Below, piece after piece: positions 1 through 16,227 of a stretch of 17,205 nt of DNA. Under the pieces are notes generated by a model, which was given only the letters and a program-made list of their open reading frames with translations, made no database searches and was not told the origin of the DNA. The position numbers were made by a program, and so were the translations under genes. The stretch lies in the IMG/VR virus record IMGVR_UViG_2548876701_000026; one strand, written 5' to 3'. The DNA comes from a virus (lineage: Duplodnaviria; Heunggongvirae; Uroviricota; Caudoviricetes). Every line of letters begins with the position of its first letter. Position 1 is the first letter of the stretch.

Positions 1-201
1 TTAAGACTCCAGTTTCGCAAAGGCTCGACGTAACTGATTATTCAAATCACGGTCGACCAGCATCGCTATCAGCTCGTCTCGACTGTAGTAAGGGCGATCA
101 GGGTTATCGACTCCAAGTCTCAGCAGGGACAGGAGGTGACGGGTAGGCAGACCACGGTAGCGGAGAGTTGCACGACCAATAGGTGTGCGCGGGTCAATCA
201 T
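1..201 (-). CDS. hypothetical small protein (66 aa), translationally coupled to the upstream Rha-like gene
   Basis: Complete ORF: stop codon at 1-3, start at 201, overlapping the stop of the 203-931 gene. No recognisable motif. Confidence 0.45.
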   Translation of the reverse strand: MIDPRTPIGRATLRYRGLPTRHLLSLLRLGVDNPDRPYYSRDELIAMLVDRDLNNQLRRAFAKLES

Positions 202-202
202 C

Positions 203-931
203 TTAGAGTCCCTCCAGCTTGCCGGATTGGGCTTGCTTCAGGAGATGCTCTTGCTTCTGCTGGTCGGTGCCAGTGAAGGCAATAAGGATGCCTCGCAGTT
301 TATCGACTATCGCAGGCTTACCGAAGACCTCCAATCCCTTAGCGTTGAAGCGAAAGTTATAACCACCTGCTGAGAACTTCTGGTCTGACGGCTTAATGAT
401 ACGGAAGCAGTCGGAATACTTTGGATTTACAGACCACTCGTTACTGATTGGGTTCTTACGAAAGAGACCACGATGCTGAAGAAGTGCGGTCATTAGCTTC
501 TGAGCGGGTAGACCATAGGTTTTGCAGTAGTCGCCCCAAGTCACGCCTCGGCGGTTAGCGGACTGAATGGCTGCTCGCTTCTTCTGGTCTTCCAGTTGAA
601 GGACTCGACGCTCTAACGTCTGAATATGGTCGTAACACTTGGCGCGGAGGTGAACGGAATAGCCAGCGACCAGAATGAAAGTATGCTTACGGTCGAGACG
701 GTACAGAGGCTGCTGTTTCCCCTGCGCGTTTAGATAGACATCTTCAGTCACCCCGATATGACTGCTCAGTTTTGAGCACTGCTCAGTTTTGAGCGCGTTA
801 AGCTCCTCAGCCATATTGCGAATATCACGTAGGACATTTCGGTGCTCCTTGCCTGTCAGCTCAGCAATTTCAACTGAGGTCATGGAGACAAGCTGGTCGA
901 GGTTAATGACGCTGATTTCTTGTTGAGACAT
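203..931 (-). CDS. Rha-family phage regulatory protein with antirepressor (KilAC-like) C-terminal region
   Basis: N-terminal segment SVEIAELTGKEHRNVLRDIRNM matches the Rha-family signature as I remember it. AAGGAG-like RBS upstream of the ATG at 931. 242 aa. Confidence 0.7.
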   Translation of the reverse strand: MSQQEISVINLDQLVSMTSVEIAELTGKEHRNVLRDIRNMAEELNALKTEQCSKLSSHIGVTEDVYLNAQGKQQPLYRLDRKHTFILVAGYSVHLRAKCYDHIQTLERRVLQLEDQKKRAAIQSANRRGVTWGDYCKTYGLPAQKLMTALLQHRGLFRKNPISNEWSVNPKYSDCFRIIKPSDQKFSAGGYNFRFNAKGLEVFGKPAIVDKLRGILIAFTGTDQQKQEHLLKQAQSGKLEGL

Positions 932-1233
932 TTACGTGTACTCCTTTTGTTTGCACCCTGAAGTCGCACCCCCACTGACCTACTCAAGCCCCCACGTAAA
1001 GGGAGACCAGCAGGCAACAGGACGCAAACAGAATGACTTGAGGTAATTGGGGTTAGTGGTCTGCGATGACCATAGAGATGAAGGTTCGACAGCATGTCCG
1101 AGCGTGTGTGGTGATAGACTTAAGTCACGAGACCAAAGAACACAAAGGCTGACCAGAGGCTGGTGGCTAGCAAGCTAGCGTGGACCACGGTTTCTCGCTT
1201 GCCGTCTCTCAGGAGGTCAGAGGCGAGATATGG

Positions 1234-1255
1234 TCCCTATAGTGATAGTTTAGTC
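1234..1255 (-). promoter_or_regulatory. T7-class single-subunit RNA polymerase promoter-like element (copy 1), predicted start near 1237 reading leftward into the Rha gene
   Basis: Minus strand reads GACTAAACTATCACTATAGGGA; the core TCACTATAGGGA equals the -8..+4 core of the T7 consensus TAATACGACTCACTATAGGGAGA. Exact 21-nt direct repeat of 1793-1813. Confidence 0.5.
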
Positions 1256-1587
1256 AAACAGGAATGAACTTCGGAGAACCTGACGCGAAAGTGTTCAGTA
1301 CTTCCAGTTAGACCCGAAGTATGGAGAACCACATCATAGCGACCGTAGTATACTTCGGGCTGACAGGACTGGAGGCTGGACTTAAAGTTCTTCTTATTGG
1401 AATTGTGATAACACAATCCATAACAAGATGAACTCATGGTCTCCTCAAGCCTGCTGGTCAGGCTCAAAGCTCCAACCTCAGACACCACTGGTCTAACCTT
1501 TTTGAGTTTCCGCCTGTCCACAAATGGATGGCAGACCTCAGCAATGATGTCTTGGTTCTTCACAATCTCGCACACCGATGGTCGCAT
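1237..1587 (-). CDS. hypothetical protein (116 aa by ORF track; alternative start at 1437 with GAGGAG RBS gives 66 aa)
   Basis: ORF lies between promoter-like copies 2 and 1. Weak RBS at 1587, better RBS before the internal ATG at 1437. No motif recognised; could be spurious. Confidence 0.2.
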   Translation of the reverse strand: MRPSVCEIVKNQDIIAEVCHPFVDRRKLKKVRPVVSEVGALSLTSRLEETMSSSCYGLCYHNSNKKNFKSSLQSCQPEVYYGRYDVVLHTSGLTGSTEHFRVRFSEVHSCLTKLSL

Positions 1588-1790
1588 AGACGGATACTTC
1601 CGCTGCGGTCTGATGTTCTCCGCCTGTCAAAGGAGAGAGATTGCTACGTTAAAGGGAATGGTCTCAGGCCAAGGTGATTTAACACTAGGCTTATTGCGGA
1701 TGGTTTCCAATCGGTCCGCTACCGGAAGCCTGAGACTTAATGAATGTGTGGGTCGGTGGCTGTATTAAGCCCGGGGGGACTTAGGGTCTC

Positions 1791-1813
1791 TCCCCTATAG
1801 TGATAGTTTAGTC
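1791..1813 (-). promoter_or_regulatory. T7-class promoter-like element (copy 2), predicted start near 1795
   Basis: Minus strand reads GACTAAACTATCACTATAGGGGAGAGACC. Identical 21-mer to copy 1, and GGGGAGAGACC resembles the T7 initiating region GGGAGACC. Confidence 0.5.
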
Positions 1814-1820
1814 CCCCCCC
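1813..1820. repeat. C8/G8 homopolymer tract between promoter-like copies 3 and 2
   Basis: cccccccc at 1813-1820, read directly. Confidence 0.9.
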
Positions 1821-1839
1821 TTCCCCTATAGTGTGGGTT

Positions 1840-1840
<1 letters not shown>
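1821..1840 (-). promoter_or_regulatory. T7/SP6/K11-class promoter-like element (copy 3, divergent upstream half), immediately after the stop of the 1840-2499 gene
   Basis: Minus strand reads AAACCCACACTATAGGGGAA; CACACTATAGGG core. Confidence 0.35.
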
Positions 1841-4099
<2,259 letters not shown>

Positions 4100-4340
4100 G
4101 TACTGAGACCTTAGGTCTGCTCACTACTTCAACAAAGTTAGTCACAGTGTTGGTTACAGTGAGTAAAACTATCGGAAGGCTTTAAGCCGTATCCCTTAGG
4201 ATTCAGTAAGTTAGTAGACTTTAAGAATGGTCATGGAGCGGGCGAAGGGAATCGAGGAAACCCATAATAACCTGCTGTAAAATAAAGATTTTGTGATCAA
4301 TCATAGGTAACTGATTACGTGATAATAGAGGATCATTATC

Positions 4341-5561
4341 GTGTCGATCAAGAGCCAAGCATACTTATTTAAGAGAAAAGATGGGATCTGGATGTTTCAG
4401 ATTTTTGTTCCTAAATACTTACGTCATCTTTACCCTTACAAGTTGTGGAGAAAAAGCACATCTACACGAGATCTGAATGAGGCGAGAAGATTCAGAAACC
4501 ATCTATTATTAGAATGGGAGGAACTAAAGCGGAAACATAATCCTGATAACCCCGAAAGGAGGTTACAACAAGCTATTGAATCCTTACATTCAGAGGCAAG
4601 GGCCAATAAAAACACGCAAAGAGCCGTAAAACGCGGTTATGCATCGCCTTCCCTATGCTTAATACGTGACGAATACGCCGAATGCTACAGAGAGCGTCGT
4701 TCATACTCAACACTACAGAAATCAGCAAGGGCCGTTGAGCTATTTTTACAAAGCATTCAGAAAGATGATATTCATATTGAGAAAATAGGCAGACGGCTTG
4801 TAACAGTATTCTTAGATGACCAGAAGCAACGAGGAGCAGCCGATCAATCTCGTCAAAACTGGCTTACATGCTTAGGATCGCTCTATGAATTTGCTAAACG
4901 CCGTTATGACGGAATACCAGACAGTAACCCTTTTCACGGTCATAATCTCGAAGCACGTCGCACAATCGAGAGTTATCAACCGTTTACACCTGAACAAATG
5001 CAAAAGCTACTTGATGCAGCGGAGCCGGAGATCAGAAATATTATTTTAATGGGCTTGTTTTCAGGATGCAGATTAGACGAACTGGCAAGTCTGAAAAAGT
5101 CAGAGGTTGTAACTGTGGAAGGAATACGCTGTTTTTATATCAGCAAAAGTAAGACTAAAGCAGGGATCAGGCACGTTCCGATACATTCGAGACTATCGAT
5201 TATTGTCGATGAATATTTAAATCATAATTATGGTGAATATTTGTTCCCTCACTCGAACAAAGTAAAAAGAATCGACGGTAAGAAAGGCCCGTTCTATTCT
5301 CAAGCGTTCTCACGTTTACGTCGTAGCGTCTTGCCAATCGCTACAAATAGACAATGCTTTCACAGCTTGCGCGGGATGTTTATCACTTGTCTTGATCGTG
5401 CCGGAGTGCCTGAACAGCGGATCGGTGCCATTACCGGACATACAGAGCAGAGAGCTAAAACAGAAGCCTTTCGCACCTACTCACAAGGGGCAAGCATTCC
5501 AGAATTAGCTGAATATGTAGAATTAGTAAGATATGAATTAAATATTGATTTTAAGGCTTAA
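4341..5561 (+). CDS. int: tyrosine site-specific recombinase / phage integrase (406 aa, GTG start)
   Basis: R in GCRLDELASL, H-x-x-R in HSLRGMFITCL, GHTEQ...AFRTYSQ with the Tyr. N-terminus YLFKRKDGIWMFQIFVP parallels the other integrase. AGAGGA RBS 8 nt upstream of GTG. Confidence 0.85.
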   Translation: MSIKSQAYLFKRKDGIWMFQIFVPKYLRHLYPYKLWRKSTSTRDLNEARRFRNHLLLEWEELKRKHNPDNPERRLQQAIESLHSEARANKNTQRAVKRGYASPSLCLIRDEYAECYRERRSYSTLQKSARAVELFLQSIQKDDIHIEKIGRRLVTVFLDDQKQRGAADQSRQNWLTCLGSLYEFAKRRYDGIPDSNPFHGHNLEARRTIESYQPFTPEQMQKLLDAAEPEIRNIILMGLFSGCRLDELASLKKSEVVTVEGIRCFYISKSKTKAGIRHVPIHSRLSIIVDEYLNHNYGEYLFPHSNKVKRIDGKKGPFYSQAFSRLRRSVLPIATNRQCFHSLRGMFITCLDRAGVPEQRIGAITGHTEQRAKTEAFRTYSQGASIPELAEYVELVRYELNIDFKA

Positions 5562-5668: not shown

Positions 5669-7510
5669 TTAACTTGGTGCTTGCCCAGACAGAGCCGCCA
5701 ACGTGAAACTACGTTCAAAATCTTGTTGGATACTTCCCACTTTGTAATCGAGGTATGATCCAAGCTGACTACCATCAGGAGCGATATTCACATCAACCTT
5801 ACTTTCTGGCACGTTTACGACAATGCTTGGCGCATACGTCATAGATGGGGTAGTGTTCAGATCACGGCTAACGTTCTCTTTCAGGGATTGCACGTTATCG
5901 GACGGGCTTGAATAGTTCTGAATTGCAGTTCCGCCAGTCGTTGGCTTGTCTTCCGTGCCAGGGATAGGCGATAAGCCTAAAGCACTACGACCCCAATCAA
6001 CCATGCCGCCTACAAACGAATCCTTATAATACATACCGGACGAATCAAGGTTTTCATGTTTGTTCTCTGGATTTATATTCTGGTATGCAGCAGTAAGCCA
6101 CGATACAGCACCAGCAAAGGCGCTCATCATTTCAGCCGTTGAGCTTCCAAGTTCTTTAAACAGAGGATTGAGATCTTTCAACATTTGCGCCCACTCTTCA
6201 CCAGCCTGAGCGTCGAACTCTTCACCGAATCCCGTCATGATAGCTTTCTTACTACCTTCCCAGGCCATATTCATATTAGCCTGTACAGCTTGCAGACGTT
6301 CAGCAGCGTCAAGATCCGCTTGCGTATAGGTGGCATTGGCTTTTTGCATCTTAACGATGGTTTTATTTAGCTCTTCACCGTTACGACTGAAAGCACCACG
6401 GAAATATTGTAAATCATTTCCAAGGTCTTCAAGGATGTGACCCTGCTCCTGATCAGAGAGTCCACGGCGTTCTCCTTCTTTCACTACAGCGCCCAGGAAA
6501 CCTAATGGATCAGTCTGGAAACCTTTAATCTGTTCAGGACTCCAACCATATTTATTAAGGATGTTATCGACGGCACCATTACCGCCAGCCCAGCGACCTT
6601 TCTTAGCGTCCCATTTGGTATTCCCTACGGATTCACCTAAACGCTCTTGAACGTCTTTAAGGTTGTCTTGACGTTGGTCTACGGAACTATCGACACCGTG
6701 TTCTAAGCCGTACTGATTAAGTGCTAACAGGGCGTTAGTGTTTACGTTGACAGCCTTTGCCTTGCGGTTAGTGTCTGTGATCTTGCTTGCCTGATCGGTT
6801 ACGGTATTGAATATCGCAGCACCGCCGAGAGTGGCAGCAGTGAGAGCGGCACCGCCCACCATTGCACCTACACCACCGCCTATATGACCGCCTTTAAGCT
6901 GTTTAGCCATATGTGGATATTTACCGCCATCAGCCGCCACCTGGCGAGCTTTTACAGCAGCCGCACGGCGTTCTAACGTGATACGATCACGGATCAGGTG
7001 ATTCATCTTAGCCTGACTAATAGCGCCTTTCTCATACGCTGCCGTTTGTGCTTTGATGTATTGCAACGTTTTGTAGTATTGGGCGGAGTCCATACCGTCG
7101 CCCATACGCCCTTTCTTAATCCCTTCAAGCTGTCTGAAAGCTTGCTGGCGCTTAATCTCTGCTTTCTCTGCTATTGTCGCTTTAGCGCGGATCTGTTTAT
7201 CGGCAGCTATAGCGGCTTTAGCCTTCGCTTTAGCTTCTGCCTTTGCCACCTTATCAGCGTTCTTCTTATCGGTTTGAGCTTGCTTGTCTGACGCTTTGGC
7301 ATCAGTTTTAGCCTGTGCAGCTTTACGAGCCTTTACCAGATCATGAGCCTCGTCTATAGCTCGTTTAGCCTTCTTCCCTTTCAATGTTGGATTGGTTAGG
7401 TTTTCCATTTCTTTCTGAAATTTCTTCCCTGCGTCCCTTGCTTTCTGTAATGATGCAAAATCAACTTTAAATACAACCTTGTTTGTTAAGGTTGAGATGT
7501 TTAAATCCAT
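5669..7510 (-). CDS. large coiled-coil / glycine-zipper protein, tape-measure-like virion protein (613 aa)
   Basis: Lys/Ala/Glu-rich heptad-like N-terminal third (KVAKAEAKAKAKAAIAADKQIRAKA), hydrophobic Gly-zipper GGHIGGGVGAMVGGAALTAATLGGAAIF, long low-complexity C-terminus. AAGGA RBS upstream. Product assignment by composition only. Confidence 0.45.
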   Translation of the reverse strand: MDLNISTLTNKVVFKVDFASLQKARDAGKKFQKEMENLTNPTLKGKKAKRAIDEAHDLVKARKAAQAKTDAKASDKQAQTDKKNADKVAKAEAKAKAKAAIAADKQIRAKATIAEKAEIKRQQAFRQLEGIKKGRMGDGMDSAQYYKTLQYIKAQTAAYEKGAISQAKMNHLIRDRITLERRAAAVKARQVAADGGKYPHMAKQLKGGHIGGGVGAMVGGAALTAATLGGAAIFNTVTDQASKITDTNRKAKAVNVNTNALLALNQYGLEHGVDSSVDQRQDNLKDVQERLGESVGNTKWDAKKGRWAGGNGAVDNILNKYGWSPEQIKGFQTDPLGFLGAVVKEGERRGLSDQEQGHILEDLGNDLQYFRGAFSRNGEELNKTIVKMQKANATYTQADLDAAERLQAVQANMNMAWEGSKKAIMTGFGEEFDAQAGEEWAQMLKDLNPLFKELGSSTAEMMSAFAGAVSWLTAAYQNINPENKHENLDSSGMYYKDSFVGGMVDWGRSALGLSPIPGTEDKPTTGGTAIQNYSSPSDNVQSLKENVSRDLNTTPSMTYAPSIVVNVPESKVDVNIAPDGSQLGSYLDYKVGSIQQDFERSFTLAALSGQAPS

Positions 7511-7526
7511 AATATTTTCCTTTACC

Positions 7527-7562
7527 TTTTATTTGTTTTGTTTTGTTTTGTTTTGTTTTGTT
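7527..7562. repeat. pentanucleotide simple-sequence repeat (TTTTG)n on plus = (CAAAA)n on minus, about 6 units
   Basis: tttg followed by five perfect ttttg units at 7536-7560, read directly. Encodes the C-terminal KQNKTKQNK of the HTH gene and sits 18 nt upstream of the 613-aa start. Confidence 0.9.
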
Positions 7563-7735
7563 ACGTAGTATTGCACTGCTTCCATAGCTGAGCAGCCAGT
7601 AGTGAAGATTCTTTGACGTACAGCAGTATTAGAGATCCCTAAAAACTTACACACTTGAGAGATATTCAGAATATCTTCCGGTAAGGTGGAAACAGCTTTC
7701 AGGATCTCAACTGGATTGTTGTTTTGTTCGCTCAT
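7529..7735 (-). CDS. small helix-turn-helix DNA-binding protein (AlpA/excisionase-like), 68 aa from the ATG at 7735 (ORF track extends to 7786)
   Basis: ILNISQVCKFLGISNTAVRQRI is a classic HTH. The N-terminal 17 codons of the 7786 start overlap the upstream terminator hairpin, so the internal Met (MSEQ) is preferred. C-terminus is encoded by the (CAAAA)n repeat. Confidence 0.5.
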   Translation of the reverse strand: MSEQNNNPVEILKAVSTLPEDILNISQVCKFLGISNTAVRQRIFTTGCSAMEAVQYYVTKQNKTKQNK

Positions 7736-7888: not shown

Positions 7889-8917
7889 TTACGCTACTGT
7901 GATCTGTACAGTGAAGCCTACGCCGTGGTTTACAACCATCTGGCTATTCTCAGTAACTACGTTTACAGCGTCGTTACGTGCTGGGCTAAACGCATAGCTG
8001 TAATATTCAGCCGCGCCAGAATTCAGCAGGTCGAACGTTGAAGAAGGAGCGCCGAAAATGTTCTGATAGACGTTAGAGCCTTTAGCGAACTTCGGAACAG
8101 CAACCGCATCAGAAGTCATATGAGCCAGCAGCAGCGGATCAGTAACTTTAACGATATCGATGTTAGTCCCAGGAATAGTGAAGGTAGTCACACCTGGCAG
8201 CAGGGAGCGCACGCTATAAACGATGTTTGCGTCATCGGTAGGGCTTGCATACTGGAACGCGTTAACCATGCCAGCACTGTAACGGATAGCGTTGAAAGCA
8301 GCAGGTTTACAGAATACAACGATACGTTCTACAGCAGCCGCCTGGCTTTGTGCTTTAGTAATAACGTCTGTATGCATCTGATCGAATTGCTGGAACACCA
8401 TAGAAGGCGTGGTGCTTGATGCGTCGATGGTTGCAGTCATCGGAACAACACTAAACAGATCGCCCCACTGGATCAGCACATCATCAGTTTTAGGGGTGTA
8501 AGTGCGACCAGAGAACAGGGAAGCAGCCAGCACGCTTTCTTTAGTACGCTGGAAAGCAATGTGGTGCTTAGCAACATATTCCGCGTAGATATCTGTCAGA
8601 GTTTCTTCAACGGTAGCGCCTGGTTTACGTTTGCCTTGCACGTCTTGCGGCTTAATCATATCTTCACGCAGGAAGTAGGGGATCTCTACTAAAAATTCTT
8701 TACCCTGTTCACGTTTAGTCACGTTATGTTCAGAAGAGAAACGAGAGGTTTCTTTGTTGAACAGAGATTCGTTAGTTTCCACCAGTTGGCTAACAGCCAC
8801 TTTATGAGAACTCACACCTACCGGATCAGTAAAGTCGAGAGAAGTTAACAGGAAGTTGCGAGAGTCGTGCAGACTAAACAGCGGAGCCAGATCGACGGAT
8901 TCATTACCAATAATCAT
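7889..8917 (-). CDS. putative major capsid protein, lambda gpE-like (342 aa)
   Basis: Size and synteny (about 120-aa decoration-like gene immediately upstream, terminator downstream). Loose colinear resemblance to lambda gpE as I recall it (segments IAFQRTKESVLAASLFSGRTYT and ERIVVFCKPAAFNAIRYS). AAAGGAA RBS. Not verified by search. Confidence 0.45.
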   Translation of the reverse strand: MIIGNESVDLAPLFSLHDSRNFLLTSLDFTDPVGVSSHKVAVSQLVETNESLFNKETSRFSSEHNVTKREQGKEFLVEIPYFLREDMIKPQDVQGKRKPGATVEETLTDIYAEYVAKHHIAFQRTKESVLAASLFSGRTYTPKTDDVLIQWGDLFSVVPMTATIDASSTTPSMVFQQFDQMHTDVITKAQSQAAAVERIVVFCKPAAFNAIRYSAGMVNAFQYASPTDDANIVYSVRSLLPGVTTFTIPGTNIDIVKVTDPLLLAHMTSDAVAVPKFAKGSNVYQNIFGAPSSTFDLLNSGAAEYYSYAFSPARNDAVNVVTENSQMVVNHGVGFTVQITVA

Positions 8918-8935
8918 TATTTTTATTCCTTTATA

Positions 8936-9307
8936 TTAAGATGTGAATACAGTGTTAAAACCAGCCATCTGGAAACCTTTTGCAGCCAGGGCAGCAATAG
9001 CAGCTTCTTTCACAGCGCCTTCAACATTCAGAGCATCGGACTTGATGCAAACCAGTCCGGCATTGCTACGCAGCACGTTAACGGTTTTAGCGTCGCCAGC
9101 GGATACCGCATCAGACACAACTACAAGAACATCGCCGCCGCTTACATATTCAGCGCCGTCACTGGTAATCAGATCGCCGCATTCAACATCAACCGCCAGA
9201 TCAACGGTAAAAGATTGCACACAACCGAACTCATCAGTTGCATATGAAACGATATCGGTAAATGATTTGCGAACTGGAAACAGATCGCTCATATTAATAA
9301 TAGCCAT
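8936..9307 (-). CDS. putative head decoration protein (gpD-like), 123 aa
   Basis: Position immediately upstream of the capsid-like gene; small Ala/Val/Gly/Asp-rich protein with a C-terminal AAIAALAAKG segment. AAGGAAA RBS. Confidence 0.35.
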   Translation of the reverse strand: MAIINMSDLFPVRKSFTDIVSYATDEFGCVQSFTVDLAVDVECGDLITSDGAEYVSGGDVLVVVSDAVSAGDAKTVNVLRSNAGLVCIKSDALNVEGAVKEAAIAALAAKGFQMAGFNTVFTS

Positions 9308-9309
9308 AA

Positions 9310-9525
9310 TTAATAGTTTCCTTTTTTGGATTGTTTGATTTGTTCTGCTTTTGCTTTAATCAGATCCTGCATAGTAGGTTTCTGTTCATCAGCAGACTTA
9401 AAAAGCTTATCACAATGTTTTTTCAATTCTGTGGGAGTGATCCCCAGCATATAAGCCGTAGCATTGAATGTTTCATCAGTGATAACCAATTCTTCGTTAC
9501 CATTCTTTAGAATGAGATTTTGCAT
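9310..9525 (-). CDS. hypothetical small protein (71 aa), first gene of the capsid-like cluster
   Basis: ORF with stop abutting the start of the decoration-like gene. No motif recognised. Confidence 0.4.
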   Translation of the reverse strand: MQNLILKNGNEELVITDETFNATAYMLGITPTELKKHCDKLFKSADEQKPTMQDLIKAKAEQIKQSKKGNY

Positions 9526-9578
9526 TATTGCTTTACCTTTATTCCTAACAGTCTTGTTTAGTGCTGATAAAAATAAAA

Positions 9579-9599
9579 CCGGAAGGGGAAAGCTTCCGG
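9579..9599 (-). terminator. intrinsic terminator (minus-strand orientation)
   Basis: ccggaag / cttccgg form a 7-bp GC-rich stem with a 7-nt loop; on the minus strand it is followed by UUUUAUUUUUAU (plus 9565-9577). Confidence 0.55.
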
Positions 9600-10115
9600 C
9601 TTTATGAATACAACATTTGAAGGATGTTATAGAGTGTTACTAAATCGCAGTTTATATGAACTTAAAGAGGAGGACATATAAGAATAAGATTGCTTATTGT
9701 TATATACCCTTGAGGGGTGAATAACAGGCTTACAGGGAGTAGGCGCTTAGGAGGTCGCCCCCTTTGGAGAGGAATCTATAAACCTGTTATTCGTGCGACG
9801 GCTAATCGCTGTCTTTCACAATGTGGATGCATCGATCAGACTTTCAGGAATCACCTATTAACTTTCAAACCTTTTGGATTCTCATTTTAATAGGAGGCGG
9901 TGCCGAGATGATTTCGGGGATCATCCACGCTTTCGCGTTCTAAGATTGGCACCTTAATAAACACCAACAAACAAAAACATATTCAGCTTTAAGCTTAGTA
10001 GAAAACTGTTGTCAAGAAACAGATATACACCGTTATTTGTTTATACGGGGTTTATAGACACTGTAAACAGTGTTTTTAGAAAGTGTTTCATGCTTCGCAG
10101 TTGGTTAAAAAGATG

Positions 10116-10137
10116 AGGGGCCAAATCCGTAGCCCCT
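10116..10137 (-). terminator. candidate intrinsic terminator downstream of the small-gene operon
   Basis: aggggc / gcccct form a 6-bp stem with a 10-nt loop; the minus strand then reads CAUCUUUUUAACC. Confidence 0.35.
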
Positions 10138-10403
10138 GCATTCTTAAGACACAATTTTGATAAAGCAATAAGGAAAATAAAATGAAACTATTAACGAGGG
10201 AAACAATTTCTAAAAAATCACTGTAAAGGGAAAGCGGGATAGGTTAGATAGGGCGCGCCCCCTTGAGGTCTACCCCGCTTTCGTGTAGGATTAGAATCGG
10301 GAGAAGGATTAACGCCAGCTAACACATATTTTCGATTCAAAACCCCACATTTATTATTATAACATTTCTGTTAGTAAAAGTCAATAGGTAAATGCAATTA
10401 TTT

Positions 10404-10613
10404 TCAACTTTTTTCGGTTGTCAGTTCCCACTCACCAAATACGCAATTACCATCTAAAACGATTGTTTGATCGTTACCGTTATCATCGGTTACGTGCATC
10501 AGGCGGGTGTAAGTGTCGAGTAAGCCGGTATACACTTTACCTACTGTGAAACAATTACCCGCTTTCCCTTCTTCTGTGAGCGCCAGAAGGCGCACACGTT
10601 TAGTTTTTGTCAT
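10404..10613 (-). CDS. hypothetical small protein (69 aa), last gene of the operon
   Basis: Start overlaps the stop of the upstream gene (TAATG). No motif recognised. Confidence 0.45.
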   Translation of the reverse strand: MTKTKRVRLLALTEEGKAGNCFTVGKVYTGLLDTYTRLMHVTDDNGNDQTIVLDGNCVFGEWELTTEKS

Positions 10614-12158: not shown

Positions 12159-12824
12159 TTAAAATGGTATTGAGTCATAGATTTCACTTTCTTTTCTCAG
12201 GGCTATCATCAGTGCATTAAAAGCATCATCTTCAAGAATTATCCTCTTCGAGGTCAGTGCACGTTTTATAAAATTTTCTGTTTCTTCTTGCATAGGCTTT
12301 TGGCTGTCTATGGAAATAAGCCATGTAAAAAGATCAGATTGTTCCGTGATTTCTGCCTGTGTTTCCTGCTCAATAGAGTGTGTCGCTTCTAACGGTTCCT
12401 GTGTTTCAGGTGCAGGCTGTTCTACGTTTACAGAGGTTTTTACGTCTTCCGGTGGTGTGATGTGTGCATCTGTAAAGGGTAATGCTTTATAGAGTGATGT
12501 TTGCCCGTCCCGTGCCTCTACAGAAAGAACACCCATATCAATAAACATATTTATAATATTACGCACCTGACGATCACTAACCATTCCAATATTAGCTAAT
12601 GTTTTTTGATTGGCGTAACATTCTTGCCCTTGTTCATTGAACCCAGCTACGTAACTGTAGATTTCAACGGCTGGAAGTGTCGCGGTGTATTCCTTACCTG
12701 ACGGTGAGAACCACTTTTTAAACATCTTCAGCCATTGTTCAACTACTACATATGTTTGTTTACTATCTTTCTTATTGAGGCATTGCGCTTTTGCTTCGGC
12801 AATTGTTTTGGTGTTTTGGTTCAT
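12159..12824 (-). CDS. winged-helix DNA-binding protein resembling phage/plasmid replication initiator or replisome-organizer N-terminal domains (221 aa)
   Basis: Segment YSYVAGFNEQGQECYANQKTLANIGMVSDRQVRNIINMFIDMGVL fits the pattern (Y..N...G.CY.SQ.TLA...G.S...V.R.I..L...G.I) seen in Rep/replisome-organizer HTH domains; acidic linker follows. AAAGGAGG RBS. Confidence 0.5.
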   Translation of the reverse strand: MNQNTKTIAEAKAQCLNKKDSKQTYVVVEQWLKMFKKWFSPSGKEYTATLPAVEIYSYVAGFNEQGQECYANQKTLANIGMVSDRQVRNIINMFIDMGVLSVEARDGQTSLYKALPFTDAHITPPEDVKTSVNVEQPAPETQEPLEATHSIEQETQAEITEQSDLFTWLISIDSQKPMQEETENFIKRALTSKRIILEDDAFNALMIALRKESEIYDSIPF

Positions 12825-13154: not shown

Positions 13155-13769
13155 AAAAAACTCCTTATTTAGATAAAAGAAAAACACACCTTGCAGCCTG
13201 ACGGCTCAAAGTGCAGTGTTCTGTGATTTGATTATTTAGATGGAGAGAGATGTTTCTCCCCTCCCTACTTACAATACTACATAACGGCGGCTTTGTCAAC
13301 CCTCTCTTATAAAAAACTTGATCATTTTCAATTTCTTATAATTTTTCTTAGCTTTTTGTGCTGCCTACTCTGGTACAATTCTTCCCTGTTGCCTAAAACG
13401 CTCTCAATCGCACTCTGACGGGGGTTTTGATAAAAACAATACATTCCCTTATGTAGAGGTTGTTTATCTCGTCAGAGGCTTATTTAAGGGGCTTATTTTT
13501 GATTTATCAGATGATGGAAAGATGGTGGATAGATAAACTCTGATTTCAGACATCTTATAAAATACCTGTAAAGCTCCTCAGAAGCTCTATAACGAGCTAA
13601 TCTATTACCGCTAAGTGTTTCCCTACCTTATATACGTTTAGCTCGCCTACGGCTTGATTTAAGCGGTAGAAACTTATTTAACCTTCAACTACTAAAACCA
13701 TTCTTTCTTTTTTGTTTGTTGTTGGTTGTTGTCTGTGTCTATGTGCTAACATCGCTAACGCGTAGCACA

Positions 13770-14035
13770 CAAGGTTATTGCACTCGTCAGAGTATTGCAC
13801 AATAGATTTTCTCTTAAATAGATTGATGATCGTTAGATTGGCGTAAGCCTCATCAATGGAACTATTGAAGCGCACAGCGCATAGACACTAACAACCATTC
13901 GCTTACGCTCAGGTTATTGCACAAGTAAATTTCAATCGTTAGATGGTAGTTAGTTAATTATCGTTCTGCGCACAGCGCAAGACTATTAGCCATACGCAAG
14001 CCGTAGGCTATTTGCACATAGTAGATTACATATTC
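13770..14035. repeat. degenerate tandem repeats of about 100 bp carrying recurring TTGCACA, CGTTAGAT and CGCACAGCGCA motifs
   Basis: cgcacagcgca at 13871-13881 and 13969-13979; cgttagat at 13831 and 13937; aggttattgcac at 13772 and 13911. Confidence 0.5.
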
Positions 14036-14918
14036 GTTGTGAGCGGAAAGCGAACATAGATCAGCTAACTACTAACAAAAAACAAAAAACAAAAACTATC
14101 TGTTATGACAAGCATCAGTCTAACTTGTGCAAGGTTCTGGCGAATGCCAATAGATTAAGGGATAGTCGAAGACTCCCTAACGGGTATCCCTATAATTATT
14201 CTTTAAAAGATAAAAGAATTTATAAAAGATAGTTTAATTGTAGTTTAATTATAGTATTGTAGGAACTCATTTCCTGGGTAGGTAGGAAACCCGCACTATA
14301 CGGTAAAAAGTGCTTGCATGTCAACTTATATTATGTTAATTGCGGCTTTAGATCGTCTAAGTGATTGTTAAAAGTAACTTTTAAAGTTAACAATTGATCA
14401 ATCAAACTTAAAAATTCCCGGCTTTAGAAAAGCATAAGTATTGTGCACACTGGTAAGTGTCTTGCACAGAAAAAGGTGTAAAAAATGTCTAAAGCCCTTT
14501 AGATAAAAATGATACCTTTATACATGCGCTAATAGCGCGCATAACAATAACCTACTAACAACTAACTAAAAAGTAAGAAGATGTTGTTATGATTAGTGTA
14601 TCGCTCAACGCTCACATCTATCTCTGATCTATAAATTGGTAACTGTCTAACAACAACAAACAACTATTACATGCAAAACAGCCTTACGGCTGCATAGAGA
14701 TGATTGGCTAACCTTCGGTTGCTACGCATAGCCATATCTATGAGAAGATAAAAGAGATTTAAAGGTTAGTTTGTTGTTGATCTAACTAACATTCGCTATA
14801 CGCTCATACAATCTACATTACACATTAACTATCAAACTACAATCTAACGATATATAGAATCTATATCCACTCATTATCATTCGTGCAATGATCACATTGA
14901 TAGTTCGCTATACGCTCA
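13898..14918 (+). repeat. four same-orientation iteron-like direct repeats TCGCT-N2/3-ACGCTCA; candidate origin or recombinase-binding region
   Basis: Copies at 13898-13911, 14601-14614, 14792-14806 and 14904-14918, inside a 2.25-kb AT-rich region with no credible ORF. Confidence 0.5.
14074..14094. repeat. (AACAAAA)3 heptanucleotide tandem repeat
   Basis: Read directly. Confidence 0.85.
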
Positions 14919-15440
14919 CCTCTATTATGTGCAATGGCTTTTCAGGCAACGCGTTAGCGTATTCTTGCGAATGCCTGATCTCCAAAGCCGGAATTAAACA
15001 GCAAGAATATCTCGTGTAAATCATAGAATATTCATAGTTTATCCCTATGTAATTCCATACTAAAAATTCAATGAAAAGTAGCTTAAAAGAGCAATGTTAG
15101 CTTTCTTCACTTTTACATTATCATCAGCAAAGCCTTATGTAATGCGGCATATAGCGCATCACTGCAAAATTGTTGCTCAATAAACGTTCTATCATTTATT
15201 GAACAAGTTTCCTTTAATGCAACAAAAAATTATTTTTTCAAAATAAACACACTATTTAATAGCTTGCTAATTTTACCAAAATGTAACTACATGATTCTCA
15301 TGCAAGACGTGTAGTGATAAAGCAGGCTAAATCACCACACTAAAAACCTTCGAATTTCGTAGTGAAAAAAGTCCTTTACACACCTAATCAACACGATCAA
15401 TAATCACTACACACAAATCAACACAGAAGGAATAAAGAAA

Positions 15441-15992: not shown

Positions 15993-16227
15993 TGCCTCCT
16001 GATATTTCAGAATTGTCGCTGCATGGACCTGACGGCGCTGATCTTCTCGTTAAGCGATGATCACGTATGCGCCGATTTCAGAGAAAAAGACAGTAACTGA
16101 ACTCACTATGAAGGCTAAACGTATCTTTACACTTGATGGAAACGTCCAAAAAACAACCTAACCCCAAAACCCAACAAATTGCAAAATATTGTTTTTAAAA
16201 GAAAATCAAATCTACATCAAATATTGG

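What the first reader, a model, noticed from the sequence alone, without database searches (positions are those of the whole stretch)
5669..7510. 613-aa coiled-coil / Gly-zipper protein of uncertain role
Its composition (KA-rich heptads, a hydrophobic GxxxG-rich segment, a long Q/N/S/T-rich C-terminus) fits a tape measure or ejection protein, yet it follows an HTH regulator rather than tail chaperones and there are no other tail genes nearby. It might be an internal core, scaffold or membrane-active protein.
Basis: inference. Interest (0 to 1): 0.4.

Follow-up and report, generated by a model that had tools for sequence, protein, structure and literature searches.

The report
Satellite-island copy of a phage tape measure
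The 613-aa protein is a full-length relative of the tail tape measure protein of large virulent E. coli/Klebsiella myophages. It is encoded, beside its own capsid gene, on a 13.5-kb integrated island that looks like an undescribed phage satellite able to re-programme its helper's tail.

Summary
The ORF is real: 5669-7510, minus strand, 613 aa, with the stated composition. It is under strong purifying selection (dN/dS 0.08).

It is homologous end to end to the tape measure protein (TMP) of Stephanstirmvirinae myophages. Matches are PHROG 16051 (E 8e-65), Phapecoctavirus gp254 (about 30% identity) and phi92 gp134 (E 7e-47). phi92 gp134 was located by cryo-EM as a trimer whose C-terminus sits in the baseplate hub.

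The gene does not lie in a phage. It lies in a 13.5-kb island at tRNA-Gly(CCC) with an integrase, a replication initiator, a small HTH gene, a major capsid protein and a probable decoration protein. The island has no portal, terminase, sheath or tube gene.

The same module (about 70 aa, about 120 aa, capsid protein, HTH, TMP, integrase) recurs in Klebsiella, Citrobacter, Enterobacter, Kluyvera and other genera. Some relatives add a tube-initiator gene 70% identical to the phage's. This island also carries an 80-bp copy of the phage's terminal-repeat boundary.

Best reading: a satellite-encoded TMP that replaces the helper's TMP in chimeric tails, as shown for Vibrio cholerae PLE. Everything beyond homology and context is inferred. 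I found no published description of this island family.

The parts
5669..7510 (-). 613-aa tape measure protein (TMP) homologue, the finding itself
   Evidence: ORF. PHROG 16051, E 8e-65. tblastn to Phapecoctavirus gp254: 29.5% identity over aa 165-611, E 4e-55. phi92 gp134, E 7e-47. dN/dS 0.076.
7391..7510 (-). TMP aa 1-40: N-terminal peptide conserved between island and phage TMPs (LxINxSxIxNxVxFxVD...SLxxAK)
   Evidence: 38% identity to the phage TMP and 35% to the Klebsiella island TMP over this stretch. N10, F14, S20 and A24 are invariant in alignment A1.
6911..7390 (-). TMP aa 41-200: K/A-rich helical spacer. It diverges from the phage TMP and lacks the phage's roughly 40-aa hyper-charged helix.
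   Evidence: Composition. 16-17% identity to the phage, which has 40 extra residues here. Predicted helices.
6806..6892 (-). TMP aa 207-235: Gly-rich hydrophobic segment (GxxxG motifs), a putative membrane-inserting segment
   Evidence: Top hydropathy window and GxxxG positions. The phage TMP has an equivalent segment at aa 252-272.
6311..6790 (-). TMP aa 241-400: conserved compact helical core domain (motifs DNxKDVxERLG, WxGGxG, EGERRG, LExLGDD)
   Evidence: 44% identity to the phage TMP. Invariant columns. pLDDT 76-94 in the AlphaFold2 model.
5672..5770 (-). TMP aa 581-613: C-terminal peptide aligned to the hub-embedded C-terminus of phi92 gp134
   Evidence: Island aa 587-611 align to gp134 631-655, the stretch resolved inside the baseplate. 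L604, S608, G609 and Q610 are invariant.
7529..7735 (-). Small conserved HTH-like gene between capsid gene and TMP (68 aa as annotated; the ORF extends to 7786 from a TTG)
   Evidence: Sub-threshold HTH_17, Sigma70_r4_2 and DUF2089-HTH matches at the same residues in several orthologues. Same position in every related island examined that carries the capsid-TMP module.
7889..8917 (-). Island major capsid protein (HK97 fold, Phage_cap_E)
   Evidence: Pfam PF03864, E 8e-12. 24% full-length identity to the Phapecoctavirus major head protein. phi92 gp124, E 2e-7.
8936..9307 (-). 123-aa protein in the position of the phage cement/decoration protein
   Evidence: Immediately upstream of the capsid gene, as in the phage. 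A profile of 13 orthologues has a myophage 'head stabilization/decoration protein' (9cul_e) as its best PDB hit, E 0.023. hhalign to the phage protein is inconclusive, E 0.029.
9310..9525 (-). 71-aa first gene of the structural operon, function unknown
   Evidence: A 66-80 aa gene sits at this position in the related islands that carry the capsid module.
9573..9605 (-). Strong terminator-like hairpin just upstream of the structural operon
   Evidence: 13-bp stem followed by a T run.
10404..10613 (-). 69-aa gene homologous to a small Phapecoctavirus early-region gene (anhysbys gp057)
   Evidence: 45% identity, E 4e-14. Found in 71 phage records, nearly all labelled Escherichia/Klebsiella phages of ~143-156 kb or Phapecoctavirus. 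phrog_27862.
12159..12824 (-). Replication-initiator-like protein (HTH_36)
   Evidence: Pfam HTH_36. PHROG replication-initiation families.
4341..5561 (+). Island tyrosine integrase (DUF6538 + Phage_integrase), convergent with the TMP gene
   Evidence: Pfam. An integrase lies convergent and next to the TMP in most related islands.
4234..4255 (+). attL: 22-nt direct repeat of the 3' end of tRNA-Gly(CCC). It marks the left end of the 13.5-kb island; attR lies about 500 bp beyond the window's right end.
   Evidence: Repeat family D3 in L005. tRNA. Sequence read in the window.
16000..16078 (+). 80-bp non-coding element, 80% identical to the right boundary of the short direct terminal repeat of Phapecoctavirus genomes
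   Evidence: Terminal repeats of this subfamily in the literature.

Best explanation
The gene encodes a satellite-borne tail tape measure protein.

Shown:
- It is a full-length homologue of the TMP of Stephanstirmvirinae virulent myophages (Phapecoctavirus gp254, phi92 gp134). It has the same layout: a conserved N-terminal peptide, a helical spacer, one Gly-rich hydrophobic segment, a conserved core domain, and the C-terminal peptide that in phi92 sits inside the baseplate hub.
- It is under purifying selection.
- It lies in a 13.5-kb island integrated at tRNA-Gly(CCC). The island has its own integrase, replication initiator, major capsid protein and probable decoration protein, but no portal, terminase, sheath, tube or baseplate genes.
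- This gene module is conserved across many Enterobacteriaceae.

Inferred, by analogy with Vibrio cholerae PLE and ICP1:
- When such a myophage infects the cell, the island excises, replicates and expresses the operon o71 / o123 / capsid protein / HTH / TMP.
- The island capsid protein builds satellite-sized heads.
- The island TMP trimer docks through its conserved C-terminus into the helper's hub and tube-initiator complex, and templates polymerisation of helper tube and sheath.
- The result is a chimeric tail predicted to be about 7 nm (about 2 discs) shorter, because all island TMPs lack the phage's roughly 40-aa charged helix.
- After contraction the TMP is ejected, and its hydrophobic segment helps form the channel for satellite DNA.
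- Packaging probably uses the helper terminase, through the island's copy of the helper's terminal-repeat boundary.
For: Homology:
- PHROG 16051, E 8e-65.
- 134 phage records, by their names and ~142-161 kb genome sizes mostly Phapecoctavirus/Justusliebigvirus-type (Stephanstirmvirinae where checked), about 30% identity.
- In phage anhysbys the homologue sits after sheath, tube and chaperone, and before the tube initiator.
- phi92 gp134, E 7e-47, with the C-termini aligned. gp134 is the cryo-EM-located trimeric TMP.
- N-terminal similarity and the shared hydrophobic segment.
- BFVD fold hits are TMPs.

Functional constraint:
- dN/dS is 0.076, and 0.10-0.19 in three other pairs.
- The gene is intact in 64 E. 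coli genomes.

Island nature:
- att repeat at tRNA-Gly.
- Integrase and replication initiator.
- Only three island genes have homologues in the 149-kb phage: TMP, capsid protein and o69.

Family:
- The same module occurs in Klebsiella, Citrobacter, Enterobacter, Kosakonia, Scandinavium, Buttiauxella, Kluyvera and Pseudenterobacter, and in deeper lineages.
- Island TMPs are 584-638 aa; phage TMPs are 634-662 aa.

Physical link to the phage lineage:
- A relative (L027) carries, right after its TMP, a tube-initiator gene 70% identical to the phage's and matching phi92 gp135 at E 5e-94.
- An E. coli O104:H4 island has the same gene, disrupted by an insertion sequence.
- An 80-bp element of the island matches the terminal-repeat boundary of 65 Phapecoctavirus-type genomes.

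Precedent:
- PLE encodes its own TMP, which replaces ICP1's TMP in virions and shortens the tail. Its deletion lowers transduction by 99.9% (PMC12987554).
Against: - There is no experimental evidence of induction, packaging or particle content for this island.
- Unlike PLE, this island has no detectable tail assembly chaperone or hub gene. Its TMP would have to use the helper's chaperone.
- The closest phage TMP is only about 30% identical, so no actual helper is identified and compatibility is assumed.
- Heads and tails assemble separately, so a satellite cannot reserve 'its' tails. The benefit of owning a TMP is unexplained, as it still is for PLE.
- The AlphaFold2 model is low-confidence outside aa 240-400.
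- The tail-length prediction assumes about 1.5 Å per residue.
Confidence: 0.6

Rival explanations
1. Interference decoy. The island TMP is mainly a dominant-negative copy. It enters or titrates the helper's tail-assembly intermediates (hub, chaperone, tube) and blocks production of infectious helper virions. It would be a defence function rather than a component of satellite particles.
For: The N- and C-terminal partner-binding peptides are conserved while the middle is diverged and shortened. Blocking tail assembly is a known defence strategy, shown by Tab, Tai and PLE11 Rta (papers listed). The island lacks its own chaperone and hub. TMPs are very diverse among E. coli islands, at 25-96% identity, as expected in an arms race.
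Against: The island also carries a capsid gene, a replication module and a copy of the helper's genome-end sequence, which points to its own packaging and transfer. A pure decoy would not need the whole conserved core and the hydrophobic segment under dN/dS of about 0.03-0.09 in most segments (0.43 in the Gly-rich aa 201-240). In PLE the TMP is a structural part of the satellite virion. The two roles are not mutually exclusive.
Confidence: 0.2
2. Leftover of a decayed prophage. The TMP and capsid genes are non-functional remnants of a larger phage genome.
For: Structural phage genes occur without the rest of a virion module.
Against: The related phages are about 150-kb genomes in which no integrase is annotated (whole anhysbys record). 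In them the capsid and TMP genes are 5 kb and 9 genes apart. The island keeps the same compact gene order in many genera at 20-60% protein identity. dN/dS is 0.08-0.19. The island is bounded by att repeats and has its own integrase and replication genes.
Confidence: 0.04
3. Capsid-internal or scaffold/ejection protein. A TMP-derived protein has been re-used inside the satellite head as a core, scaffold or pilot protein.
For: It is co-transcribed with the capsid genes, and no dedicated scaffold or protease is recognisable in the island.
Against: The peptide that in phi92 is buried in the baseplate hub is the most invariant part of the protein. Relatives place a tube-initiator gene directly after it, as phages do. 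Nothing resembles known scaffold or ejection proteins.
Confidence: 0.06
4. Host cell-envelope protein (TolA-like or SPFH-like), as a few database names suggest.
For: Two homologue clusters carry the source names 'SPFH domain-containing protein' and 'cell envelope integrity protein TolA'. There is a weak OsmB match over the Gly-rich segment, E 0.017 and far below the cut-off.
Against: There is no Pfam or NCBIfam family above threshold. Those names fit the low-complexity K/A-rich and Gly-rich stretches only. The strong hits are all TMPs.
Confidence: 0.01

Closest known systems
Tape measure protein of Stephanstirmvirinae myophages (phi92 gp134; Phapecoctavirus anhysbys gp254; PHROG 16051)
   Same: Homologous over the full length, with the same order of parts: conserved N-terminal peptide, helical spacer, one Gly-rich hydrophobic segment, conserved core, and the C-terminal ...L..LSGQ peptide that is hub-embedded in phi92.
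   Different: Only about 30% identical. It is 46-49 aa shorter because the hyper-charged helix and the Pro/Gly-rich N-terminal stretch are missing. It is encoded on an integrated island between an HTH gene and an integrase, not between the tail chaperone and the tube initiator.
Satellite-encoded TMP of Vibrio cholerae PLEs, which gives chimeric tails on the lytic myophage ICP1 (Nature 2026, PMC12987554)
   Same: An integrative satellite-type island linked to a large virulent myophage. It carries a low-identity, shorter homologue of the helper-type TMP: PLE is about 20% identical and 95 aa shorter; here about 30% identical and about 49 aa shorter.
   Different: PLE also encodes a tail chaperone and a hub protein, and uses the helper's capsid protein remodelled by TcaP. 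This island has no detectable chaperone or hub, but does have its own major capsid protein. Some relatives add a tube initiator instead. Sequence relatedness to the PLE TMP was not tested. Function here is untested.
EPIP satellites of Mycolicibacterium (bioRxiv 2025, PMC12822802)
   Same: Small satellites reported to encode both a major capsid protein and a TMP, with altered tail length.
   Different: They are actinobacterial, with siphovirus-type tails, a serine integrase, a small terminase subunit and head-tail connector genes. The helper is a prophage. There is no indication of homology.
Capsid-forming PICIs (cf-PICI)
   Same: Enterobacterial islands that make their own capsids and steal tails. 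Some are reported to carry predicted tmp genes.
   Different: cf-PICIs encode a full head module: portal, protease, capsid protein, connectors, and small terminase subunit/HNH (my own knowledge of the family; one search lists the describing paper). Here only a capsid protein and a probable decoration protein are present.

Membership tests
Stephanstirmvirinae-type tail tape measure protein (PHROG 16051 / phi92 gp134 family) | Significant sequence homology to a TMP whose place in the virion is experimentally established | tested here: met
   phi92 gp134, E 7e-47 over aa 134-611, plus N-terminal similarity. gp134 was located by cryo-EM. PHROG 16051, E 8e-65.
Stephanstirmvirinae-type tail tape measure protein (PHROG 16051 / phi92 gp134 family) | Mostly alpha-helical protein with a hydrophobic Gly-rich segment and a conserved C-terminal hub-docking peptide | tested here: met
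   Helical prediction. Hydrophobic segment at aa 207-235, matching phage aa 252-272. Invariant L604, S608, G609 and Q610, aligned to gp134 631-655.
Stephanstirmvirinae-type tail tape measure protein (PHROG 16051 / phi92 gp134 family) | Gene located in a tail module, after tube and chaperone and before tube initiator and hub | tested here: not met
   In the window it lies between an HTH gene and an integrase, with no tail genes present. In two related islands a tube-initiator gene does follow it.
Stephanstirmvirinae-type tail tape measure protein (PHROG 16051 / phi92 gp134 family) | Present as a trimer in the tail lumen and sets tail length | not testable with these tools
   Needs particle proteomics, cryo-EM or length-variant genetics.
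Satellite-encoded TMP forming chimeric tails (PLE type) | Encoded on an integrative element with its own integrase and replication genes that lacks most virion genes | tested here: met
   att repeats at tRNA-Gly. Integrase and replication initiator. Only TMP, capsid protein and one small gene have phage homologues.
Satellite-encoded TMP forming chimeric tails (PLE type) | Diverged, shorter homologue of the TMP of a virulent myophage that infects the same host genus | tested here: met
   About 30% identity to the TMPs of E. coli and Klebsiella Phapecoctavirus-type phages; 613 aa against 662 aa.
Satellite-encoded TMP forming chimeric tails (PLE type) | Accompanied by a satellite tail assembly chaperone and a baseplate hub gene | tested here: not met
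   No island ORF matches the phage chaperone or hub or a Pfam or PHROG tail family. Very remote homologues among the small ORFs are not excluded.
Satellite-encoded TMP forming chimeric tails (PLE type) | Sequence relatedness to the PLE TMP itself | not tested
The all-against-library HMMER search returned only 55 representatives, and the sampled ones were enterobacterial-type islands or Stephanstirmvirinae-like phages.
Satellite-encoded TMP forming chimeric tails (PLE type) | Incorporated into transducing particles and required for transfer | not testable with these tools
   Experimental.
Capsid-forming PICI | Complete head module (portal, protease/scaffold, capsid protein, head-tail connectors) plus small terminase subunit/HNH | tested here: not met
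   Pfam, PHROGs and NCBIfam scans of the island ORFs find only a capsid protein and, weakly, a decoration-like protein.
Phage satellite (general) | Helper-dependent induction, packaging and transfer | not testable with these tools
   There are only indirect signs: three to four genes shared with one phage lineage, a 70%-identical tube-initiator gene in a relative, and an 80-bp copy of the phage's terminal-repeat boundary.

The most novel reading that the evidence does not exclude
The protein is the tail-reprogramming component of an undescribed, widespread family of Enterobacteriaceae satellites that parasitise virulent, therapy-relevant Stephanstirmvirinae myophages. The family occurs in E. 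coli (including O26:H11 and O104:H4), Klebsiella, Citrobacter and Enterobacter.

These elements would carry a minimal structural kit:
- their own capsid cassette, in two interchangeable types;
- their own TMP, sometimes with a tube initiator;
- a mimic of the helper's terminal-repeat boundary for packaging.

The extreme TMP diversity (25-96% identity within E. coli) and the constant absence of the helper's charged helix could reflect an arms race over tail assembly. One possibility is an Rta-like island factor aimed at the helper-only segment.
Probability: 0.45. Interest if true: 0.8.

Novelty: new variant of a known kind. Interest (0 to 1): 0.6.

Why it matters
If this is right, PLE is no longer the only experimentally tractable case of a satellite that rebuilds its helper's tail. 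A second, unrelated system would exist in E. coli and Klebsiella, where genetics, phage collections (Phapecoctavirus and Justusliebigvirus isolates) and a cryo-EM structure of a helper-type virion (phi92) are already available.

That would make an open question directly testable: why does a satellite need its own tape measure? The candidates are tail length, DNA delivery, and escape from or infliction of tail-assembly interference.

There is also a practical side. Stephanstirmvirinae phages are used in therapy and biocontrol cocktails. About 1% of complete E. coli genomes carry this TMP allele (64 of 5426), about 4% carry the associated end-mimic element (242 of 5426), and very many Klebsiella genomes carry such islands. 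These islands could lower phage efficacy or mediate gene transfer.

Tried and rejected
- Pfam, NCBIfam and PADLOC gave nothing meaningful for the 613-aa protein. The weak OsmB hit and the 'TolA' and 'SPFH' names of some clusters reflect Gly-rich and K/A-rich low complexity.
- A single-sequence scan of IMG/VR contigs found no relative.
- Foldseek against the PDB gave no hit at E <= 0.001, because full TMPs are not resolved in structures.
- AlphaFold2 gave a low-confidence model (mean pLDDT 58) apart from aa 240-400.
- Direct BLASTP of the 123-aa protein against the phage cement protein found nothing. Profile-profile comparison was inconclusive, E 0.029. A PDB profile search gave a weak best hit to a myophage decoration protein, E 0.023. 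I therefore call this protein only 'probable decoration'.
- Rfam found nothing in the window.
- The prophage-remnant reading was rejected on synteny, att sites and dN/dS.
- cf-PICI membership was rejected on gene content (no portal, protease, connector or small-terminase match in Pfam/PHROGs/NCBIfam); P4-like membership was not formally tested.
- Literature searches for a satellite of Stephanstirmvirinae, phi92 or phAPEC8, and for the RefSeq accessions of the island proteins, found no description. The library lacks most subscription journals, so prior description cannot be excluded.
- An entropy scan of 110 mostly Klebsiella-type TMP variants showed no sharply hypervariable patch.
Full report
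**Observation**

The ORF exists exactly at 5669-7510 but on the minus strand. It runs from an ATG to a stop, 613 aa, and is preceded by an AAAGGA ribosome-binding site.

The compositional description holds:
- K+A reaches 58% in aa 51-100.
- The most hydrophobic window is aa 216-234, inside a Gly-rich stretch at aa 207-235 with four overlapping GxxxG motifs.
- The last 160 residues are moderately enriched in Q/N/S/T (28-38%).

AlphaFold2 predicts an almost entirely helical protein, with one confidently folded compact domain at aa 240-400.

The frame is not accidental. It is intact at full length in 64 of 5426 complete E. coli genomes. Against a 93%-identical allele it shows dN/dS 0.076 at dS 0.29. 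Three pairs of more distant orthologues give 0.10-0.19.

**What the protein is**

Pfam, NCBIfam and PADLOC are silent. PHROGs places aa 215-611 in phrog_16051, 'tail length tape measure protein', at E 8e-65.

tblastn against about 50,000 phage genomes finds 134 records. By name and genome size (about 142-161 kb) they are predominantly Phapecoctavirus/Justusliebigvirus-type myophages of E. coli and Klebsiella; the records whose taxonomy I read are Stephanstirmvirinae. Identity is about 30% over the C-terminal 62%.

In phage anhysbys the homologue (gp254, 662 aa) lies after the sheath, tube and tail assembly chaperone genes and before the tube initiator and hub genes.

The PDB sequence search returns a single hit, phi92 gp134, at E 7e-47. 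The phi92 cryo-EM paper identifies gp134 as the trimeric TMP. Its residues 631-656 are resolved in the baseplate interior (PMC13450770).

Alignment shows that homology is end to end:
- the first 40 residues are 38% identical to the phage TMP;
- the core, aa 241-400, is 44% identical;
- the C-terminal ...L..LSGQ peptide is invariant in islands and phage, and aligns to the hub-embedded part of gp134.

Both proteins have one Gly-rich hydrophobic segment at the equivalent place. Where the best BFVD fold matches are named, the names are tape measure or tail proteins.

The island proteins consistently lack a roughly 40-aa hyper-charged helix and a Pro/Gly-rich stretch that the phage TMPs have. Lengths are 584-638 aa in islands and 634-662 aa in phages.

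**Where it sits**

The window is E. coli chromosome of the O26:H11 EHEC type.

A 22-nt direct repeat of the 3' end of tRNA-Gly(CCC) lies at window 4234-4255 and again at the tRNA, about 500 bp beyond the window's right end. It delimits a 13.5-kb island.

From the left, the island holds:
- a tyrosine integrase (4341-5561, + strand);
- then, all on the minus strand and transcribed towards the integrase: a replication-initiator-like gene (12159-12824), several small ORFs, a 71-aa gene, a 123-aa gene, a Phage_cap_E major capsid protein (7889-8917), a small HTH-like gene (7529-7735) and the TMP;
- at the far end, a 2.2-kb AT-rich non-coding stretch, a small serine recombinase and a YecR-like lipoprotein gene.

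A tblastn of every island ORF against the whole 149-kb phage genome finds only three shared genes:
- the TMP;
- the capsid protein, 24% identical over its full length, which also matches phi92 gp124;
- a 69-aa protein, 45% identical to a small early-region gene found in 71 phage records, nearly all Phapecoctavirus-type by name and size.

The 123-aa gene occupies the place of the phage cement/decoration gene. Its profile has a myophage decoration protein as best PDB hit, but only at E 0.023.

No portal, terminase, protease, sheath, tube, chaperone or baseplate gene is present.

**A conserved island family**

The protein search found a 98%-identical E. coli cluster and more than a hundred clusters at 30-36% identity, all 615-635 aa, mostly from Klebsiella chromosomes.

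Contig look-ups and a GTDB scan show the same gene order: about 70 aa, about 120 aa, a capsid protein of about 345 aa, an HTH gene of about 65 aa, a TMP of about 600-640 aa, and usually a convergent DUF6538 integrase. It occurs in Klebsiella, Citrobacter (two copies in tandem), Enterobacter, Kosakonia, Scandinavium, Buttiauxella, Kluyvera and Pseudenterobacter, and in deeper lineages.

An exhaustive HMMER search of 1.84 billion representatives returns only 55 proteins, so the family is narrow. Each one I placed in context was either such an island or a roughly 140-kb phage with a complete tail module.

In a neighbour-joining tree of the core domain, the phage-type TMPs form one clade and the island TMPs lie outside it. 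The window's protein branches deep among the island ones. This tree has no support values.

The family is mosaic:
- Two capsid cassettes that are about 21% identical combine freely with the TMP types.
- E. coli ZJ3920 has the same replication gene (100%), integrase (99.5%) and TMP (96%) as the window, but the other capsid cassette (19%).
- An O104:H4 island shares the recombinase (99%) and replication gene (70%), but its TMP is only 25% identical.

**Links to the phage lineage beyond distant homology**

1. One island (L027) carries, directly after its TMP, a 218-aa gene. It is 70% identical to the gene that follows the TMP in the phage and matches phi92 gp135, the tube initiator, at E 5e-94. 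The O104:H4 island has the same gene, split by an insertion sequence. Such high identity implies recent exchange with these phages.

2. The only non-coding nucleotide similarity between island and phage is an 80-bp element at window 16000-16078, 80% identical with three conserved blocks.
   - It is present in 65 phage genomes, labelled Escherichia, Klebsiella or Phapecoctavirus with a few odd host labels, in an unannotated gap.
   - Two independently assembled genomes, WPEC4 and KKP 3954, have 328- and 309-bp terminal overlaps whose right end falls inside this element.
   - The literature reports direct terminal repeats for this subfamily, 342 bp in BME3 by PhageTerm.
   - So the island carries a copy of the helper-type genome-end boundary. 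This is what a satellite packaged by the helper terminase would be expected to have.
   - The element lies immediately after the serine recombinase gene in both islands examined. It could alternatively be that enzyme's recombination site.

**Mechanism**

The best-supported model is a satellite-encoded TMP that makes chimeric tails. The direct precedent is Vibrio cholerae PLE, a satellite of the virulent myophage ICP1. PLE encodes a shorter TMP, about 20% identical to the phage's, that replaces the phage TMP in PLE virions and shortens the tail by about 10 nm. Its deletion lowers transduction by 99.9% (PMC12987554).

Here, conservation of the N-terminal peptide, the core and the hub-docking C-terminus argues that the island TMP engages helper partners: chaperone or terminator at one end, hub and tube initiator at the other. 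The missing 46-49 residues predict a tail about 7 nm, or about two of phi92's 24 discs, shorter (inference, at about 1.5 Å per residue).

The hydrophobic Gly-rich segment is the likely membrane-inserting part after ejection. This is an inference from TMP biology in general and from the phi92 authors' model.

The structural operon has no recognisable sigma-70 promoter of its own. It is preceded by a strong promoter-like site and two terminators in an 880-bp non-coding gap. That would fit helper-triggered read-through, but it is untested.

Shown: homology, architecture, selection, island structure, family conservation, shared genes and the shared end element. Inferred: induction, packaging, incorporation into tails and the effect on tail length.

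**Rivals**

- A dominant-negative decoy that blocks helper tail assembly is plausible and not exclusive (0.2).
- A prophage remnant is contradicted by synteny across genera, the att sites, the island's own integrase and replication genes, and dN/dS (0.04).
- The TolA and SPFH database names reflect low complexity only (0.01).

**Comparison and novelty**

As a protein, this is a new and divergent member of the Stephanstirmvirinae TMP family. It fails one family criterion, its genomic position. As a system, it resembles PLE, but it differs in three ways:
- it carries its own capsid protein;
- it lacks a chaperone and a hub;
- it belongs to a different host group and a different helper group.

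It is not a cf-PICI, because it has no portal, protease, connectors or small terminase subunit.

I found no description of this island family, or of any satellite of Stephanstirmvirinae, in the searchable literature. That library is incomplete.

I rate it a new variant of a known kind, with interest 0.6. Satellites carrying TMPs are very recent knowledge. This one would be a tractable second case in E. coli and Klebsiella, linked to phages used therapeutically. Everything beyond homology and context remains to be shown experimentally.

Noticed in passing
window 16000-16078 (and L034 14001-14093): An 80-bp non-coding element is 80% identical to a conserved unannotated site in 65 Phapecoctavirus-type genomes. 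In two independently assembled phages it overlaps the right end of the 309-328 bp terminal repeat. It occurs in 242 of 5426 E. coli genomes. In the two contexts I examined it starts right after the stop codon of a small serine recombinase gene. It could be a packaging-site mimic or the recombinase's target site.
   Followed up: partly
window 7889-9525 versus L029 7030-8661: The capsid cassette (about 70 aa, about 125 aa, capsid protein) exists in two types that are about 20% identical and are swapped between otherwise near-identical islands. E. coli ZJ3920 has replication gene 100%, integrase 99.5% and TMP 96% identical to the window, but its capsid protein is 19% identical.
   Followed up: partly
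window 7532-7562: There is a perfect pentanucleotide repeat, (TTTGT)6.2 on the + strand, which is (ACAAA)n at the 3' end of the small HTH gene, 20 nt upstream of the TMP start. The encoded KQNK repeat is shorter in strain ZJ3920, so the copy number varies between strains.
   Followed up: no
window 9526-10403: An 880-bp gap without ORFs lies upstream of the structural operon. It holds a near-consensus sigma-70 promoter (10384-10356, minus strand, with an extended -10 TG) followed by two terminator-like hairpins (10137-10116 and 9605-9573). It may be a regulatory RNA or an antitermination switch for the late operon.
   Followed up: no
window 10404-10613: A 69-aa island protein is 45% identical to a small hypothetical early-region protein (anhysbys gp057). 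That protein was found in 71 phage records, nearly all Phapecoctavirus-type by name and size. It is a third gene shared with the presumed helper lineage.
   Followed up: partly
window 1-4233: A second island abuts attL. It carries a 535-aa integrase, a DUF4145 protein that matches the PD-T7-4 anti-phage defence model (E 1e-102) and a Rha-family regulator. Its G+C is about 50%, against about 40% for the TMP island. It is apparently a tandem insertion at the same tRNA-Gly site.
   Followed up: no
window 13190-15440 (23-mer at 14259-14281): This is a 2.2-kb AT-rich stretch with no convincing ORF. The 23-mer GTAGGAACTCATTTCCTGGGTAG is single-copy here but exactly duplicated in tandem in strain FWSEC0001. 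That shifts coordinates by 23 bp between the window and L005.
   Followed up: no
L027 9869-10525; L034 2685-4561; L026 2805-3275: Some islands of the family carry a tube-initiator (Dit-like) gene. It is 70% identical to the phage's in L027, split by an insertion sequence in E. coli O104:H4, and truncated and displaced in L026. The window's island has none.
   Followed up: yes
L036 4162-7851; L012/L018 (Citrobacter sp. NCU1 contig_39): One metagenomic island variant (L036) has a 584-aa TMP but no capsid gene next to it. Citrobacter sp. NCU1 carries two complete islands of the family in tandem, about 13 kb apart, with different capsid types.
   Followed up: no
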